Virus record (IMG/VR): IMGVR_UViG_3300010234_000001
Span: 114,612 to 178,611 of that record
Source of the DNA: a virus
Taxonomy: Duplodnaviria; Heunggongvirae; Uroviricota; Caudoviricetes
Strand: one strand, 5' to 3'
Length of the DNA: 64,000 nucleotides
Position numbers and translations under genes: made by a program. Below, in pieces: positions 41,794-64,000 of the stretch (the first letter of the stretch is position 1; each line of letters starts with the position of its first letter). The notes under the pieces are model-generated. The model saw only the letters and a list, made by a program, of their open reading frames with translations, was not told the DNA's origin and searched no databases.

Positions 41794-41881
41794 GGTGGTG
41801 CAAGTAAGGGCAATCTGGTGAAGCCGCGCGGCTGTAAACCGCGTCCCTATGTGGCATGAGGTTCGATTCCGTCCACCACCC
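41794..41881 (+). tRNA. tRNA-Tyr-like (anticodon GTA), type II; degenerate T-stem
   Basis: Perfect acceptor ggtggtg/caccacc. Strong anticodon hairpin cgcgg-ctGTAaa-ccgcg. T-loop ttcgatt is present but the T-stem pairs poorly. Confidence 0.35.
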
Positions 41882-41887
41882 ACATTG

Positions 41888-41942
41888 AAATCTCCGGATG
41901 TCTAAATAGTAGTAGAGATACCTAATTTAGCTCCGGAGATTT
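41888..41942 (+). promoter_or_regulatory. HEG leader cassette, copy 1: 11-bp hairpin enclosing late-promoter-like TCTAAATA, 3' arm carries GGAG
   Basis: aaatctccgga ... tccggagattt inverted repeat, 33-nt loop with tctaaatag, GGAG 11 nt before the TTG start of the GIY-YIG ORF. Confidence 0.55.
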
Positions 41943-41948
41943 CCTAAC

Positions 41949-42575
41949 TTGTTCTACACTGTCTATAAAATAACTAACAACATTAATGGCAAATATTATA
42001 TTGGTAAACATCAAACCAAAGACCTTGATGATGGATACATGGGATCAGGTAAACTAGTTCGTTATGCCATAGATAAATATGGTATCGAAAATTTCACCAA
42101 AGAAATCCTTTATATATTTAACACAGAAGAAGAAATGAATACCAAAGAAGCCGAATTAGTTGTTGTTTCGGAAGAAACATACAATTTATGCGAAGGTGGA
42201 AAAGGTGGATTTGGGTATATAAACACATTGGAGAGAAATGGTATATGGATTGCTAAGAGACCAGAACCAGCAAATAAATCTCTTTGGAAATCAAATATAT
42301 CCAAAACAAAAAAAATAGAATATGAAAAAGGTGATAATCCATTACAAAAATTAACATACATGCAGAATATGAAAAGAATTAGAAATTCTGCAAAGGGACA
42401 TGTCGGCAATAAACGATCTGAATTAACTAAAATAAGAATGAGTGAATCCAATAAAGGTTCAAAAAATTCACAATTTGGAACTTGTTGGATAACAAATGGA
42501 AATGAAGTCAAGAAAATTCCCCTAGAGGCACTTGACAGCCACCTAGAAATGGGTTATCGTAGGGGACGAAAATAA
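41949..42575 (+). CDS. GIY-YIG homing endonuclease (Seg-like), copy 1
   Basis: N-terminal YTVYKITNNINGKYYIGKH GIY-YIG motif. Conserved C-terminus NSQFGTCWITNGNEVKKIPLEALDSHLEMGY. TTG start; in-frame TAG 6 codons upstream. Confidence 0.75.
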   Translation: MFYTVYKITNNINGKYYIGKHQTKDLDDGYMGSGKLVRYAIDKYGIENFTKEILYIFNTEEEMNTKEAELVVVSEETYNLCEGGKGGFGYINTLERNGIWIAKRPEPANKSLWKSNISKTKKIEYEKGDNPLQKLTYMQNMKRIRNSAKGHVGNKRSELTKIRMSESNKGSKNSQFGTCWITNGNEVKKIPLEALDSHLEMGYRRGRK

Positions 42576-42717
42576 GAGCTTCGAGTTGCATACTGATACG
42601 ATGGTATGCATGTTAAGGTGAAAAGCACTAGGTTTCGCGTCACCCTTCCAGCATGTTGTTGCGAGCCTATAATTGATGGGGACTGATCGTCCATCCTCGA
42701 ATAGAAAGATTGGAAAT

Positions 42718-43341
42718 ATGCATAAAACGATTAACATAGAAGTCGGTGCGAACAGTGGTTCACACACAAAAAATCTCGCAGGTGAAAATGTTGATATGTT
42801 GTATGCATTTGAACCAAATCCAGAATTATACTTTAATCTAACTCAAGCATACAAAGGTAATGATAAGATTTGTATTCTGCCGTTCGCGGTAAGCGATAAA
42901 GATTCAATGGATTGGTTTAACATATCGAGGGTTGGCGACAAAGGAACAAGTTCACTATATAATTACCACGAAAATCTTGGTAATACGCCGGCCGGTAATC
43001 ATGAAGTATTTACCACACCGTGGGATTATAGAATATTGGTTCCCGTGATAAGAATTGAAACTTTCTTAAATACTTTTGCAAATACCGATTACGTAAAGAT
43101 AAACTATATACATATTGATGCGCAAGGATCGGATTTGAATGTATTAAAGGGAATTGGAAAATATTGGGATGTTCTTAAAGAAGGTGTATGCGAGGCAACG
43201 TTGGATATTCCCCTTTACCAAGACGCGAATAATCAACAGGATGATATTCTAGAATTTCTTGGTAATAAAAATGTTAAGACCGAACTACTAAGACCGCACC
43301 AGAATAGAACGGAAATAGATATTCGATTTTGGATAGATTAA
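42718..43341 (+). CDS. FkbM-family methyltransferase
   Basis: INIEVGANSG (DxGANxG-like) and the FkbM domain pattern. Confidence 0.45.
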   Translation: MHKTINIEVGANSGSHTKNLAGENVDMLYAFEPNPELYFNLTQAYKGNDKICILPFAVSDKDSMDWFNISRVGDKGTSSLYNYHENLGNTPAGNHEVFTTPWDYRILVPVIRIETFLNTFANTDYVKINYIHIDAQGSDLNVLKGIGKYWDVLKEGVCEATLDIPLYQDANNQQDDILEFLGNKNVKTELLRPHQNRTEIDIRFWID

Positions 43342-43488
43342 GATGAATATATATAAAACTATTGATGATGTTCCGATAGTGACATATGCGGTAGTTGCTC
43401 ACAATCATCCCGATATTGATCTTATACTAAAAGCTTATAAGATTAAGGGGCATGGAATTGGAGTTGATTATCAAATGGATTTTTATAA

Positions 43489-43565
43489 GGCTACGTAATT
43501 CAACTGGACAGAAATTCAGCCTTCGAAGCTGAAAGTTGAGGGTTCGAATCCTTCCGTAGTCACCA
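43489..43565 (+). tRNA. tRNA-Arg (anticodon TCG)
   Basis: Acceptor ggctacg/cgtagtc, anticodon stem tcagc/gctga, loop ctTCGaa, T-arm gaggg-ttcgaat-ccttc, CCA. Confidence 0.65.
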
Positions 43566-43582
43566 AAATTTAAGGAGTTATT

Positions 43583-43921
43583 ATGGACTATAAGTGTGTA
43601 AATGGGCATGATGCCTGTGATCAAATGTATCCGGGACCGGAGTGTCCCTATTGCGAAAAAAAGGATTTAATGTTGTTTAAACTTGGTAAAATTTACGTAG
43701 ACGGTCAATATGTTGCATTTGTGGATGTTAATGGCTATAATTGTGCACTTCGGCGTGACGAAGTTGCTCATATAGTCTGGCGTCCCGGTCTAAAAACGTC
43801 ATTGTATGTTGACGGTGATAAAGAGAAAGATATCATTGAAGTGCATACAAAACAAAATAAGTTTCTGTTAACCGAAGCGGATGGCGATGAGTTCGTTTCT
43901 TTAGTGGAACGTATTAGATAA
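43583..43921 (+). CDS. hypothetical zinc-ribbon protein
   Basis: CxxC ... CPYC motifs. Confidence 0.3.
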   Translation: MDYKCVNGHDACDQMYPGPECPYCEKKDLMLFKLGKIYVDGQYVAFVDVNGYNCALRRDEVAHIVWRPGLKTSLYVDGDKEKDIIEVHTKQNKFLLTEADGDEFVSLVERIR

Positions 43922-43941
43922 TTTATTAGTTGAAACAAAAT

Positions 43942-62490: not shown

Positions 62491-62514
62491 AAGAAAATCG
62501 AAGAGAAATATCTC

Positions 62515-62543
62515 TTGACAACCCGGAAAGTCTACTATATACT
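62515..62543 (+). promoter_or_regulatory. sigma70-like promoter (TTGACA-17-TATACT) upstream of tRNA-Val
   Basis: Consensus -35 and near-consensus -10. Confidence 0.45.
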
Positions 62544-62554
62544 ACAGTCATCAT

Positions 62555-62629
62555 GGACCGCTCGCCAAATGGGAAGGCAACGGCTTTACACGCCGACATG
62601 ACTAGGTTCGATTCCTAGGCGGTCTACCA
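62555..62629 (+). tRNA. tRNA-Val (anticodon TAC)
   Basis: Acceptor ggaccgc/gcggtct, D-arm gcc..ggc, loop ttTACac, perfect T-arm ctagg-ttcgatt-cctag, CCA. Confidence 0.65.
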
Positions 62630-62644
62630 AATCGGAGTTTTATC

Positions 62645-62917
62645 ATGTGGAACTTTATTCATGAAGACGCTTCAATAGACGACATTACTTCCCTCTTTGG
62701 AGACATGGAAGGAAAATTGGAGTTGGTGAATGAGGAATGGGGAACCATTAACGATGAAACCAAACTTGAAGATATCGTGATTCGTATGGGTGTATTCAAG
62801 TCGAAAAGCCAAGCCAGAAAAAACAACTGGTCGGGTGAAATCCCGATGGGATTCCGGGAATGGAAAATCGGCAAGAAACACTTTTGGACATACAAACCAA
62901 TGGAGAATATATTATGA
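62645..62917 (+). CDS. hypothetical protein
   Basis: 90-aa ORF. Confidence 0.3.
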   Translation: MWNFIHEDASIDDITSLFGDMEGKLELVNEEWGTINDETKLEDIVIRMGVFKSKSQARKNNWSGEIPMGFREWKIGKKHFWTYKPMENIL

Positions 62918-63285
62918 CGGATGAAACTGAATTCGTATGGGATAACACAAATAACGATTATAACTATGCGTTCATTGAATTCTTGAAGGATAGTGGATTT
63001 ACGGTTATAGAGCCGGGCGGAAGTCCGTTTGTATGGAAACGAGCAGATTTTTTCGGTCATAACATTCGATATTCGGTGTCTGTCGATAATGTGGAAATGG
63101 GTACAATCGAAGCTAGATTTACTGATCCGGAAAGTCATCGCGTAACAAAGTGGTTGATGTTCGATAGTAACAACGGACGGGCTTTTGATGAAGATGAAGA
63201 TTTCAATAATGCTAAGTACAAATTCGAACGAAAATTAGTATTGGAGAGATTGGACATTGGGCCAGATGGGACGGCTACGCCTTGA
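62860..63285 (+). CDS. hypothetical protein
   Basis: 141-aa ORF. Confidence 0.3.
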   Translation: MENRQETLLDIQTNGEYIMTDETEFVWDNTNNDYNYAFIEFLKDSGFTVIEPGGSPFVWKRADFFGHNIRYSVSVDNVEMGTIEARFTDPESHRVTKWLMFDSNNGRAFDEDEDFNNAKYKFERKLVLERLDIGPDGTATP

Positions 63286-63323
63286 CATGGCGTGATGAAT
63301 GGGTTCGATTCCCTTAATGTCTA
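63252..63323 (+). tRNA. tRNA-Val (anticodon GAC)
   Basis: Acceptor ggacatt/aatgtct, D-arm gcc..ggc, perfect anticodon stem acgcc/ggcgt, loop ttGACat, T-loop ttcgatt. Overlaps the 3' end of the preceding ORF. No CCA. Confidence 0.5.
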
Positions 63324-63328
63324 CATCG

Positions 63329-63378
63329 AAATCTCCGGATGTATAAATAGTCTATAATGGGCTAACATTCGGAGATTT
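63329..63378 (+). promoter_or_regulatory. HEG leader cassette (14-bp stem, TATAAATA)
   Basis: aaatctccggatgt ... acattcggagattt, with TATAAATA at 63342-63349. Confidence 0.55.
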
Positions 63379-63384
63379 CCTAAC

Positions 63385-64000
63385 TTGTTCTATACTGTAT
63401 ATAAAATAACTAATAATATCAACGGCAAATATTATATCGGCAAACATCAGACTAAAGACCTTGATGATGAATACATGGGTTCCGGTAAACTATTGAAACA
63501 TGCTATTAACAAGTATGGTATCGAAAATTTTAACAAAGAAATACTTCATGTATTTGATAATGTAGAGGAAATGAATGCCCGAGAAGCAGAACTTGTTATT
63601 GTATCTGAAGGCACATATAATTTATGCGAAGGTGGACAGGGGGGATTCGGTTACATTAATAGAACTTTAGATCATTTAATTCGTAGTAAGATTCAGAGTA
63701 TAAATGCTAAAAGGAAAGATTATACAAAGATAAATTGGAATGTAGAGGTTCAGTCAAGAAAAAAGAAAAAATGGCATAAAGAAAATCCATTAGAATCCTC
63801 CAAACATATACAACTAGCCACTAAAGCATTTCTAAAAAATGGTCACTCGGAAGAATCCAAAAGTAAGATTGGTAAAGCAAATTCCATACACCAATCTGGT
63901 TCAAAAAATTCACAATTTGGCACTTGTTGGATCACGAACGGAAACGAAGTCAAGAAAATTCCCCTAGAGGCACTTGACAGCCACCTAGAAATGGGTTATC
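63385..64000 (+). CDS. GIY-YIG homing endonuclease, copy 5 (3' end truncated by the window edge)
   Basis: TTG start, LFYTVYKITNNINGKYYIGKH. Open frame to the window end, finishing in the conserved LDSHLEMGY block. Confidence 0.7.
   Translation, partial: MFYTVYKITNNINGKYYIGKHQTKDLDDEYMGSGKLLKHAINKYGIENFNKEILHVFDNVEEMNAREAELVIVSEGTYNLCEGGQGGFGYINRTLDHLIRSKIQSINAKRKDYTKINWNVEVQSRKKKKWHKENPLESSKHIQLATKAFLKNGHSEESKSKIGKANSIHQSGSKNSQFGTCWITNGNEVKKIPLEALDSHLEMGY

What the first reader, a model, noticed from the sequence alone, without database searches (positions are those of the whole stretch)
41794..63387. Homing-endonuclease genes are inserted precisely at tRNA 3' ends; tRNA fragments lie nearby
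Every cassette begins within 0-6 nt of the 3' end of a tRNA: Tyr-like, Cys, His, Arg(TCT), Met, Asp, Asn-like and Val(GAC). A free-standing tRNA 3'-half (T-arm plus acceptor plus CCA) lies at 47621-47648 next to the HNH gene. This suggests that tRNA 3' regions are the homing targets or recombination anchors for these endonucleases, as with SegB in the T4 tRNA cluster. It also suggests that partial tRNA duplications are by-products of homing.
Basis: inference. Interest (0 to 1): 0.6.

Follow-up and report, generated by a model that had tools for sequence, protein, structure and literature searches.

The report
SegB-type homing endonucleases at tRNA ends
A T4-like phage carries eight copies or relics of a selfish nuclease gene related to T4 SegB, each inserted where a tRNA gene's CCA end should be; this matches what is already known for SegB, so it is a clear but largely ordinary case.

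Summary
Between 41.8 and 64 kb the tRNA array holds eight copies of one cassette. Six carry a GIY-YIG/NUMOD3 endonuclease gene, one is a truncated relic (after Arg-TCT) and one is a hairpin with no gene (after Met).

Every copy starts 1-2 nt after the discriminator base of a tRNA that lacks an encoded CCA. 24 of the 25 other array tRNAs encode CCA.

The proteins are 40-42% identical over their full length to T4 SegB. SegB's mapped target is the tRNA T-arm motif GGTTCRANTCC through CCAR, and it cuts at the tRNA 3' end. T4 has the same layout: a CCA-less tRNA-Ile, a leader hairpin, segB, then tRNA-Arg 5 nt later.

Each cassette opens with a 15-bp covarying hairpin. It holds a T4 late-promoter motif (TATAAATA) near its tip and the ribosome-binding site in its 3' arm. 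This is the known I-TevI/SegB expression switch.

The abutment recurs across about 30 distinct metagenomic leaders and in cultured Rhizobium, Klebsiella and Acinetobacter phages.

The idea that tRNA fragments are homing by-products is not supported for the fragment at 47621-47648.

Verdict: new members of a known kind. The strict CCA replacement and the eight-fold colonisation are modest additions.

The parts
41793..41883 (+). Degenerate tRNA-Tyr-like gene (anticodon loop CTGTAAA, long variable arm, weak T-stem). It ends with discriminator A + C and has no CCA.
   Evidence: Sequence read directly. Not called by default ARAGORN or Rfam; called only at -ps80. Contains GGTTCGATTCC.
41884..42575 (+). 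Cassette 1, subfamily A. Leader hairpin 41887-41943 with the promoter motif weakened to TCTAAATA. SegB-like GIY-YIG ORF 41949-42575 (TTG start, 208 aa).
   Evidence: Pfam SegE_GIY-YIG 25.7 bits plus NUMOD3. Fold -24.5 kcal/mol. R1 68.6 bits. First 100 aligned nt are 100% identical to the His cassette.
45946..46018 (+). tRNA-Cys(GCA). Ends discriminator T + CC, with no terminal A.
   Evidence: ARAGORN; Rfam 48.8 bits; sequence.
46019..46730 (+). Cassette 2, subfamily B. Hairpin 46022-46073 with TATAAATA at 46036-46043. ORF 46077-46730 (217 aa).
   Evidence: Pfam NUMOD3 37.4 bits; GIY-YIG 20.1 bits. 40% identical to T4 SegB. Fold -29.3 kcal/mol. Motif position.
48291..48363 (+). tRNA-His(GTG). 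Ends discriminator A + C, no CCA.
   Evidence: Rfam 68.3 bits.
48364..49058 (+). Cassette 3, subfamily A. Hairpin 48367-48423 (TCTAAATA). ORF 48429-49058 (TTG start, 209 aa).
   Evidence: Pfam SegE_GIY-YIG 31.7 bits, NUMOD3 23.2 bits. 42% identical to T4 SegB, E 1e-44.
52655..52729 (+). tRNA-Arg(TCT), no CCA. It is a paralogue of the CCA-bearing tRNA-Arg(TCG) at 43489-43565, with identical acceptor, D and T arms. The two form an in-genome filled/empty pair: GTCAC|ATTGAAG versus GTCAC|CAaaattt.
   Evidence: sequences.
52730..52826 (+). Cassette 4, a relic. Intact hairpin 52733-52784, promoter motif mutated to TATAAATG, and only about 45 nt of the endonuclease ORF 5' end left before the next gene's ribosome-binding site.
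   Evidence: R1 84.3 bits.
54386..54459 (+). tRNA-Met(CAT). Ends discriminator A + C, no CCA.
54460..54526 (+). Cassette 5, a hairpin with no gene (54463-54514). Promoter motif mutated to TATAACTA. It fills the whole spacer up to tRNA-Asp.
   Evidence: R1 76.8 bits.
54527..54602 (+). tRNA-Asp(GTC). Discriminator G + CC, no terminal A.
54603..55288 (+). Cassette 6, subfamily B. Hairpin 54606-54657 with TATAAATA at 54620-54627. ORF 54662-55288; an upstream in-frame ATG at 54647 lies inside the stem. The stop codon is 3 nt before tRNA-Ser(CGA).
56234..56316 (+). tRNA-Asn(GTT), 83 nt with a long variable arm. Ends discriminator G + C, no CCA.
   Evidence: Rfam 59.3 bits.
56317..56979 (+). Cassette 7, subfamily A. 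Hairpin 56320-56371 with TATAAATA at 56334-56341. ORF 56377-56979 (TTG start, 200 aa). The stop codon is 5 nt before tRNA-Phe.
63252..63324 (+). tRNA-Val(GAC). Ends discriminator A + C, no CCA.
63325..64000 (+). Cassette 8, subfamily A. Hairpin 63328-63379 with TATAAATA at 63342-63349. The ORF starts at 63385 and runs to the window end.
   Evidence: tblastn place 63385-63999, E 1e-73.
47621..47648 (+). Orphan tRNA 3' half (T-arm GTAGGTTCGAATCCTAC + CGGGGGC + A + CCA). It lies 22 nt after tRNA-Leu(TAG). It is not part of any cassette and no donor tRNA was found.
47069..47530 (+). HNH endonuclease gene. It ends 10 nt inside the 5' end of tRNA-Leu(TAG). It belongs to a different family and does not start at a tRNA 3' end.
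   Evidence: Pfam HNH 24.8 bits; coordinates.

Best explanation
The window comes from a distant T4-like myovirus. Free-standing homing-endonuclease cassettes of the SegB family (GIY-YIG catalytic domain plus NUMOD3 DNA-binding region) have colonised its tRNA array.

Proposed cycle, inferred by homology with T4/T6 SegB:
1. The enzyme binds the T-arm DNA motif GGTTCRANTCC of a tRNA gene.
2. It cuts about 23-26 bp downstream, at the CCA end.
3. The break is repaired from an allele that carries the cassette.
4. The roughly 690-bp cassette therefore sits exactly at the tRNA 3' end, from just after C74/C75 to its own stop codon. That stop often lies 3-5 nt before the next tRNA.

Consequences of insertion:
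- It overwrites the encoded CCA. This removes the preferred CCAR cleavage context, which is probably partial self-immunity.
- The tRNA must then be finished by endonucleolytic 3' trimming and CCA addition, as for the CCA-less T4 tRNAs.

Expression switch:
- Each cassette begins with a 15-bp hairpin.
- In read-through transcripts of the tRNA operon the hairpin pairs the Shine-Dalgarno sequence and blocks translation.
- A T4-type late promoter (TATAAATA) at the top of the 5' arm starts late transcripts inside the loop. Those transcripts lack the 5' arm, so the nuclease is made only late in infection.

Shown here: homology, exact junctions, loss of CCA, hairpin covariation, and conservation of the motif position across genomes.
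Inferred: cleavage specificity, homing, immunity and promoter activity.
For: Family:
- 40-42% full-length identity to T4 SegB, with YIG Tyr17/Gly19 conserved.
- T6 and PP01 segB are among the tblastn hits.
- Pfam GIY-YIG/SegE and NUMOD3.

Host: T4-type DNA polymerase, gp46/47, UvsX and gp41.

Junctions:
- Eight of eight cassettes start right after discriminator-C(C).
- R1 finds no other copy in 64 kb.
- Identity between paralogous cassettes starts at that base and ends at the stop codon, while the flanking tRNAs are unrelated.

Link to CCA loss:
- Across the window plus 138 loci, all 47 tRNAs followed by a family gene within 150 nt lack CCA, against 0 of 923 CCA-bearing tRNAs. The loci are not all independent.
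- Related arrays without these genes encode CCA in 589 of 602 tRNAs.

Same layout elsewhere: T4 and cultured Rhizobium, Klebsiella and Acinetobacter phages.

Hairpin:
- 96.7% of cells paired; 8 of 15 outer pairs show compensatory changes; 0 of 500 shuffles reach the observed score.
- Stems differ completely between contigs, yet TATAAATA stays at the same place.

Literature:
- SegB site GGTTCRANTCC...CCAR, cut at the tRNA 3' end, homing shown in T4 x T2L crosses (PMC2330249).
- T-loop motif by SITE-seq and enrichment of SegB homologues near tRNAs (PMC13096335).
- Switch built from a hairpin and a late promoter in I-TevI, SegB and MobE (PMC2988022).
Against: - No close relative of this phage was found. 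The best match is 61% amino-acid identity and exact-protein look-ups were empty. Presence/absence polymorphism at these exact sites, the direct signature of homing, could therefore not be checked.
- T6 keeps CCA on the tRNA-Tyr upstream of segB, so CCA loss is not obligatory in the family.
- SegB still cuts CCAR-less sites, 3 nt further upstream (PMC2330249), so immunity through CCA loss is at best partial.
- Two intact cassettes (Tyr-like, His) have TCTAAATA rather than TATAAATA.
- TATAAATA is not over-represented in the window as a whole: 6 found, 5.4 expected.
- 21 of 27 other tRNAs also carry the T-arm motif, so the motif alone does not explain which tRNAs are occupied.
Confidence: 0.78

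Rival explanations
1. The repeats arose by segmental amplification of a tRNA + endonuclease unit, followed by divergence, rather than by repeated site-specific insertion at different tRNA 3' ends. T6 does this with tRNA-Tyr + segB under Septu pressure.
For: SegB-driven tandem amplification of a 718-bp tRNA-Tyr + segB unit is documented (PMC13096335). The window copies share near-identical C-terminal DNA, 75-100%.
Against: - The repeated unit excludes the tRNA. Identity between copies starts exactly after discriminator-C and stops at the stop codon.
- The upstream tRNAs are eight different, unrelated species.
- The copies are dispersed over 22 kb, not tandem.
- The same junction recurs after many tRNA types in unrelated contigs.
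Confidence: 0.07
2. The hairpin and the loss of CCA serve RNA processing first. The stable stem 3-4 nt after the tRNA would be a cleavage signal (RNase E or RNase III type) that separates the tRNA from the nuclease mRNA. The CCA-less end would be selected because only RNase Z/BN-type endonucleolytic maturation works next to such a stem. Nuclease immunity would be secondary.
For: - The stems stay perfect in the two relics that lack the gene, although their promoter motifs have decayed.
- A short A/U-rich single-stranded linker (ATTGA, ATAAG, ACAAG) always precedes the stem.
- RNase E processing of the segB transcript is reported (PMC2988022).
- T4 tRNAs without CCA need host 3' processing and CCA addition (established knowledge, recalled from memory).
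Against: - The position of TATAAATA and the placement of the Shine-Dalgarno sequence in the 3' arm are conserved across lineages. A pure processing signal does not predict this.
- The relics may simply be young.
- This reading is compatible with the main explanation rather than exclusive of it.
Confidence: 0.25
3. The cassettes are domesticated rather than purely selfish. They would be kept because cutting tRNA genes of co-infecting relatives excludes their markers, or because the breaks let the phage amplify or reshuffle tRNA genes against tRNA-targeting host defences.
For: - SegB enforces inheritance of the T4 tRNA region (PMC2330249) and enables amplification of anti-defence tRNA genes (PMC13096335).
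- Six apparently intact paralogues with conserved catalytic residues persist in one array.
- Mosaic exchange between copies suggests continuing recombination.
Against: Two of the eight copies are decayed, as expected for selfish elements that have gone through their cycle. There are no functional data for this phage or its host.
Confidence: 0.3
4. The abutment to tRNA ends is coincidence in a dense tRNA array.
For: tRNAs occupy a large share of this region, so any inserted gene lies near one.
Against: - Eight of eight junctions fall on the same nucleotide of the tRNA.
- All 47 tRNAs followed by a family gene lack CCA, against 0 of 923 that have it; Fisher p about 6e-44, with the caveat that loci are not independent.
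- Leader lengths cluster at 57-65 nt.
Confidence: 0.01

Closest known systems
Phage T4/T6 SegB (free-standing GIY-YIG homing endonuclease in the tRNA gene cluster)
   Same: - Homologous over the full length, 40-42% identity.
- GIY-YIG plus NUMOD3 architecture.
- The gene lies between tRNA genes. It starts 41-46 nt after the upstream tRNA in T4/T6 (about 57-65 nt here) and stops about 5 nt before the next tRNA.
- In T4 the upstream tRNA-Ile also lacks CCA, and the leader has a hairpin that sequesters the ribosome-binding site together with a late-promoter-like CATAAATA (PMC2330249; PMC2988022).
- The mapped SegB site (T-arm motif through CCAR) matches where the window's junctions lie.
   Different: - Eight cassettes (six intact) in one array, against one in T4/T6.
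- The hairpin is longer (15 + 6 bp) and carries a consensus TATAAATA at its tip.
- CCA loss is invariable in this environmental clade, whereas T6 keeps CCA.
- The central regions are highly divergent between paralogues, and the paralogues share a C-terminal segment.
- No biochemical data exist for these proteins.
I-TevI (td intron) and Aeh1 MobE expression control
   Same: A stable hairpin sequesters the Shine-Dalgarno sequence in early and middle read-through transcripts. A late promoter placed in or next to the hairpin gives transcripts that can be translated (PMC2988022).
   Different: I-TevI is encoded in an intron and targets a protein-coding gene. MobE is an HNH enzyme. Here the element is free-standing and sits at tRNA 3' ends.
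Phage T5 F-TflI/II/IV endonucleases in the tRNA gene region
   Same: These are homing-endonuclease ORFs embedded in a phage tRNA cluster, whose expression is thought to be limited by processing of the tRNA transcript (mentioned in PMC2330249).
   Different: The phage lineage is different, and as I recall the enzyme families are partly different. No sequence comparison was made here.

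Membership tests
SegB family of free-standing GIY-YIG homing endonucleases | N-terminal GIY-YIG catalytic domain with the YIG tyrosine and glycine (Y17/G19 in SegB, required for activity) | tested here: met
   Pfam SegE_GIY-YIG is above its cutoff in 2 of 5 copies and just below it in the others; GIY-YIG scores 19-21.6 bits. The alignment with T4 SegB shows ...KYYIGKH... aligned with ...KIYIGVH.... The catalytic role of Y17/G19 is from PMC13096335.
SegB family of free-standing GIY-YIG homing endonucleases | Full-length sequence homology to T4/T6 SegB, including NUMOD3 and the C-terminal KNSQFG...GRK segment | tested here: met
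   BLASTP gives 42% (E 1e-44) and 40% (E 1e-42) over about 218 aa. tblastn hits to annotated segB of T6 and PP01 cover 100%. NUMOD3 scores 37.4 and 23.2 bits. segE of RB3 scores lower: 33.6%, E 1e-20.
SegB family of free-standing GIY-YIG homing endonucleases | Free-standing gene inside a phage tRNA array, directly downstream of a tRNA 3' end | tested here: met
   for the window. for T6 and T4. for other phages.
SegB family of free-standing GIY-YIG homing endonucleases | Site-specific double-strand cleavage at GGTTCRANTCC...CCAR in tRNA genes | not testable with these tools
   Only indirect evidence. All eight occupied tRNAs have the motif, and the junction is 23-24 nt from its start.
SegB family of free-standing GIY-YIG homing endonucleases | Homing: presence/absence polymorphism among close relatives and preferential inheritance in crosses | tested here: inconclusive
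   No close relative was retrievable. Filled and empty sites could be compared only between paralogous or distant tRNAs: Arg-TCG versus Arg-TCT in the window, and tRNA-Asn in L019/L023 versus L022/L024.
T4-type translational switch built from a hairpin and a late promoter (I-TevI, SegB, MobE, e, soc) | A stable stem pairs the Shine-Dalgarno sequence, and the structure is conserved by covariation | tested here: met
   Folds of -24.5 to -30.1 kcal/mol with GGAG/GGGA in the 3' arm. 8 of 15 outer pairs show compensatory changes and 96.7% of cells are paired. 34 distinct leaders were folded.
T4-type translational switch built from a hairpin and a late promoter (I-TevI, SegB, MobE, e, soc) | A late promoter (TATAAATA) placed so that late transcripts lack the 5' arm | tested here: met
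   This holds for motif and position only. TATAAATA sits at the 3' end of the 5' arm in 4 of 6 intact cassettes and at the same place in most related leaders. Promoter activity itself cannot be tested here.

The most novel reading that the evidence does not exclude
SegB-type cassettes in this environmental clade obey a strict rule: they overwrite the encoded CCA, inserting after C74/C75. This would both shield the occupied allele from the CCAR-directed cut and make the tRNA depend on RNase Z/BN-type trimming and CCA addition.

Within one genome the nuclease has radiated into paralogues. Their catalytic and C-terminal modules are homogenised by gene conversion. Their central DNA-binding linkers have diverged, possibly to read individual acceptor stems.

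If so, this would be a family of nucleases specific for individual tRNA genes that shapes, spreads and defends a phage tRNA array.
Probability: 0.25. Interest if true: 0.55.

Novelty: new member of a known kind. Interest (0 to 1): 0.33.

Why it matters
This confirms that a reader working from raw sequence correctly recognised SegB-type biology. It also extends that biology to a distant, uncultured T4-like lineage, where the element has colonised eight tRNA genes in one array.

Two points may deserve a short note in the field, because neither SegB paper I read states them:
- The junction is precise to the nucleotide: the cassette replaces the CCA in every copy of the environmental clade examined, and in T4.
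- The paralogues are mosaic: conserved ends with hypervariable middles.

SegB was recently shown to drive amplification of tRNA genes against tRNA-cleaving defences. An array carrying six intact paralogues is therefore a natural system for asking two questions. Do such nucleases have preferences for individual tRNAs? Do they build or stabilise large phage tRNA arrays?

Tried and rejected
1. Close relatives lacking individual cassettes were sought and none was found.
- Megablast against 50,697 phage records gave only tRNA-sized hits.
- IMG/VR and JGI metagenome scans with the neighbouring DUF2828 gene gave at most 61% identity.
- A VWA-protein scan found nothing.
- Exact-protein look-ups were empty.
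- The direct test on filled versus empty sites was therefore impossible.

2. I tested whether the divergent middle region tracks tRNA identity. The window's Asn copy has three Asn-associated homologues as its best middle-region matches. Identities are only about 0.2, and a Gln-associated protein shares the same motif. Result: inconclusive.

3. I looked for a donor, or a 5' partner, for the orphan tRNA 3' half at 47621. None was found.

4. An apparent tRNA 3' fragment after an endonuclease gene in L019 turned out to be a complete but degenerate tRNA-like unit with its own 5' acceptor strand. It was rejected as a by-product.

5. An intrinsic-terminator role for the hairpin was rejected because no U-run follows the stem.

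6. A role as a protein operator for the stem is unlikely, because the arm sequences covary freely.

7. TATAAATA enrichment over the whole window is not significant. The argument rests on where the motif sits, not on how often it occurs.

Full report
**What is there**

The window is a distant T4-like myovirus. Its 844-aa DNA polymerase is about 46-47% identical to gp43 of marine and cyanobacterial T4-like phages. PHROGs assigns neighbouring ORFs to gp46/47-type SbcCD, UvsX, a gp41-type helicase and a Dda/UvsW-type helicase.

ARAGORN tRNA genes, all on the + strand, 29 of them between 41191 and 63324. Rfam adds one at 44769-44840.

Inside this array, five complete ORFs and one that runs off the window end hit GIY-YIG/SegE_GIY-YIG and NUMOD3 in Pfam. 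They are mutual homologues. An HNH gene lies at 47069-47530.

**Checking the observation**

Reading the sequence from each tRNA 3' end to each ORF start shows a conserved leader of about 65 nt. A covariance model built from it (R1) and run without filters finds exactly eight copies in 64 kb. All eight start at a tRNA 3' end.

- In five copies (Tyr-like, His, Arg-TCT, Asn, Val-GAC) the sequence reads discriminator-C|AT(T/C)GAA(A/G)TC.
- After Met it reads discriminator-C|TTTGGGATTC.
- After Cys and Asp it reads discriminator-CC|CTTGAGAGTC.

All eight tRNAs lack an encoded CCA. 24 of the 25 other ARAGORN tRNAs encode it, and 19 of those read CCAA.

Six copies carry an endonuclease ORF. The copy after Arg-TCT keeps about 45 nt of the ORF, and the copy after Met is a hairpin with no gene.

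The 'Tyr-like' tRNA is degenerate; only ARAGORN at -ps80 calls it.

The HNH gene does not follow the rule.

**Cassette boundaries**

The Tyr-like and His cassettes are 100% identical over their first 100 aligned nt. Identity begins at the base after discriminator-C, although the two tRNAs are unrelated. Identity ends at the stop codon.

After Asp and Asn, the stop codon lies 3 and 5 nt before the next tRNA.

Two paralogous tRNA-Arg genes give an in-genome comparison of empty and filled sites...GTCAC|CAaaattt (Arg-TCG, 43489) versus ...GTCAC|ATTGAAG (Arg-TCT, 52655).

The mobile unit is therefore about 690 bp, running from C74/C75 to the stop codon.

**The leader hairpin**

Each leader folds into a 15-bp outer stem plus a 6-bp inner stem, at -24.5 to -30.1 kcal/mol.

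Across only eight copies:
- 8 of the 15 outer pairs show changes on both sides.
- 96.7% of cells are paired.
- No shuffle out of 500 reaches the observed covariation.
- Sliding the 3' partner destroys the pairing.

TATAAATA, the T4 late-promoter consensus, straddles the top of the 5' arm in four intact cassettes. Two intact cassettes have TCTAAATA. The two relics have TATAAATG and TATAACTA.

The 3' arm contains GGAG or GGGA about 10 nt before the start codon.

**Related sequences**

A scan of IMG/VR with one endonuclease returned 58 loci.

- In most of them the homologue starts 55-78 nt after a + strand tRNA that lacks CCA, and that tRNA varies widely: Asn, Gln, Gly, Ala, Ser, His, Tyr, Met, Thr and Lys.
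- Over the window plus 138 loci, 47 tRNAs have a family gene within 150 nt downstream. All 47 lack CCA, against none of 923 CCA-bearing tRNAs. Many loci are near-duplicates, so the p-value overstates independence. There are still 34 distinct leaders and 33 distinct proteins.
- The stems differ completely between contigs, while TATAAATA and the purine-rich 3' arm keep their positions.
- For tRNA-Asn, filled sites (L022/L024...GCAGC|ACAAGTG) and empty sites (L019/L023...GCAGCCAtta) show the same junction.
- Related arrays next to the same DUF2828 gene lack these endonuclease genes and encode CCA in 589 of 602 tRNAs.
- Cultured Rhizobium, Klebsiella and Acinetobacter T4-like phages show the same layout.

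**Comparison with what is known**

The proteins are 40-42% identical over their full length to T4 SegB, with the YIG tyrosine and glycine conserved. T6 and PP01 segB are among the tblastn hits.

PMC2330249 reports that SegB:
- recognises 27 bp made of GGTTCRANTCC (the T-arm), a degenerate stretch and CCAR;
- cuts right after CCAR, or 3 nt upstream where CCAR is absent;
- homes with about 94-100% efficiency in T4 x T2L crosses.

PMC13096335 reports a SITE-seq motif RAWTSGAAC, which is the reverse complement of the T-loop motif. It also reports enrichment of 386 non-redundant SegB homologues within 1 kb of tRNAs, and SegB-dependent amplification of tRNA-Tyr + segB.

All eight occupied tRNAs carry GGTTCRANTCC. 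The junction lies 23-24 nt from its first G, within 3 nt of SegB's mapped cut.

T4 has the same layout: a CCA-less tRNA-Ile (...CTGGGTCA|TATTTTGAGAACATAAATAC...), a 41-nt leader, segB, then tRNA-Arg after 5 nt. T6 differs in keeping CCA on the upstream tRNA-Tyr.

PMC2988022 describes the switch built from a hairpin and a late promoter for I-TevI, I-TevII, I-TevIII, SegB and Aeh1 MobE.

**Mechanism**

Shown here: family membership, exact junctions, CCA loss, hairpin covariation and conservation of motif position.

Inferred by homology:
- The enzymes bind the T-arm motif and cut at the CCA end.
- Repair copies the cassette into that position.
- Loss of CCAR reduces cutting of the occupied allele.
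- Read-through transcripts are translationally silent.
- Late transcripts that start in the loop are translated.

The occupied tRNAs would need endonucleolytic 3' trimming and CCA addition, as the CCA-less T4 tRNAs do. That last point is established knowledge recalled from memory.

**Mosaic paralogues**

Between subfamilies, the leader and N-terminal half are 55-62% identical at the DNA level. The middle roughly 200 nt are 35-50% identical. The last roughly 170 nt are 75-100% identical. This points to exchange between copies.

Whether the middle region tracks tRNA identity is inconclusive.

**The tRNA fragment**

The fragment at 47621-47648 is a T-arm plus an acceptor 3' strand plus CCA. It matches other tRNAs only over the generic T-arm. 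It has no 5' partner and adjoins no GIY-YIG cassette.

Orphan T-arm modules are common in these arrays: 72 in 315 kb, with only 2 beside a family gene. One apparent fragment in L019 is a complete degenerate tRNA-like unit.

A true by-product exists in L010. There, the first 32 nt of tRNA-Thr remain upstream of a different endonuclease cassette that brought its own tRNA-Thr, whereas L011 and L013 have the intact site.

The by-product idea is therefore plausible in general but unsupported for this fragment.

**Limits**

No close relative of this phage could be retrieved. Presence/absence at these exact sites, and any activity, remain untested.

**Verdict**

These are new members of a known kind. 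The eight-fold colonisation, the strict CCA replacement and the mosaic paralogues are modest additions.

Noticed in passing
window 58951-59488 (also L039/L040/L041 about 2931-2990, L032 2119-2180, L006 6484-6545): The region upstream of the DUF2828 + DUF7788 gene (59489-60937; possibly Ro60/TROVE + vWA-like) is structured, apparently non-coding sequence. It holds five copies of the motif TTACAGCAA, several GC hairpins, an orphan T-arm (59218-59234), and a tRNA-like element with anticodon TTA and no CCA (59308-59380; Rfam tRNA 55 bits). The unit 'TTACAGCAA, A-rich run, T-arm, acceptor 3' strand, CCA' recurs in unrelated viral contigs. It may be a Y-RNA-like or tRNA-like partner RNA, or a set of middle-promoter-like boxes.
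   Followed up: partly
window 46735-46811: A cloverleaf-like RNA begins 5 nt after the stop codon of the Cys-associated endonuclease gene. It has an 8-9 bp acceptor stem, an ACCA end, a possible GAU anticodon loop and a non-canonical T-loop. Fold z-score is -2.7 and 0 of 200 shuffles fold as well. Neither ARAGORN nor Rfam calls it. It may be a degenerate tRNA, which would fit the pattern of the endonuclease gene stopping about 5 nt before the next tRNA.
   Followed up: partly
L010 3689-4350 versus L011/L013 3689-3702: This is a real pair of filled and empty sites in a related contig group. A different endonuclease cassette (TATAAATA + hairpin + 200-aa zinc-finger protein) sits after the first 32 nt of tRNA-Thr(GGT) and brings a second, different tRNA-Thr(GGT). 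That leaves a 5' tRNA fragment. The family of this protein was not identified.
   Followed up: partly
L040 about 2925-3001 (and L039, L041-L046): A SegB-like gene (62% identical over the N-terminal 87 aa) is preceded by a short TATAAATA hairpin. The hairpin directly follows the 5' half of a tRNA, which is cut in or near the anticodon loop. I did not check whether the 3' half lies downstream, which would suggest an intron-like or split tRNA.
   Followed up: no
window 56234-56316 and L005 2855-2936: A tRNA-Asn(GTT) of 82-83 nt with a long variable arm, which is unusual for Asn. In both cases it is the tRNA immediately upstream of a SegB-like cassette.
   Followed up: no
window 44769-44840: A tRNA found only by Rfam (51.3 bits) and missed by ARAGORN. 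It ends in ACCA.
   Followed up: no
window 41607-41681: A second tRNA-Arg(TCT) that lacks CCA but has no cassette or hairpin after it. tRNA-Pro follows after 27 nt. It is the one CCA-less tRNA in the array that the cassettes do not explain.
   Followed up: no
window 7500-29500: A cluster of glycosyltransferases (GT2, GT4, GT8-like and GT10 fucosyltransferase), FkbM-type and SAM methyltransferases, a UDP-glucose dehydrogenase and a HAD hydrolase is embedded among T4-type replication genes. Further FkbM methyltransferase (42673-43341) and sulfotransferase (58044-58868) genes lie inside the tRNA array.
   Followed up: partly
L017, L022, L019 (Asp copy), L026-L029: Some SegB-like homologues at tRNA 3' ends end early. 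Their tail reads ...NSQYGKPRSEETKQKIRESLAKTR, and they lack the C-terminal CWITNG...GRK segment that the window copies share.
   Followed up: no
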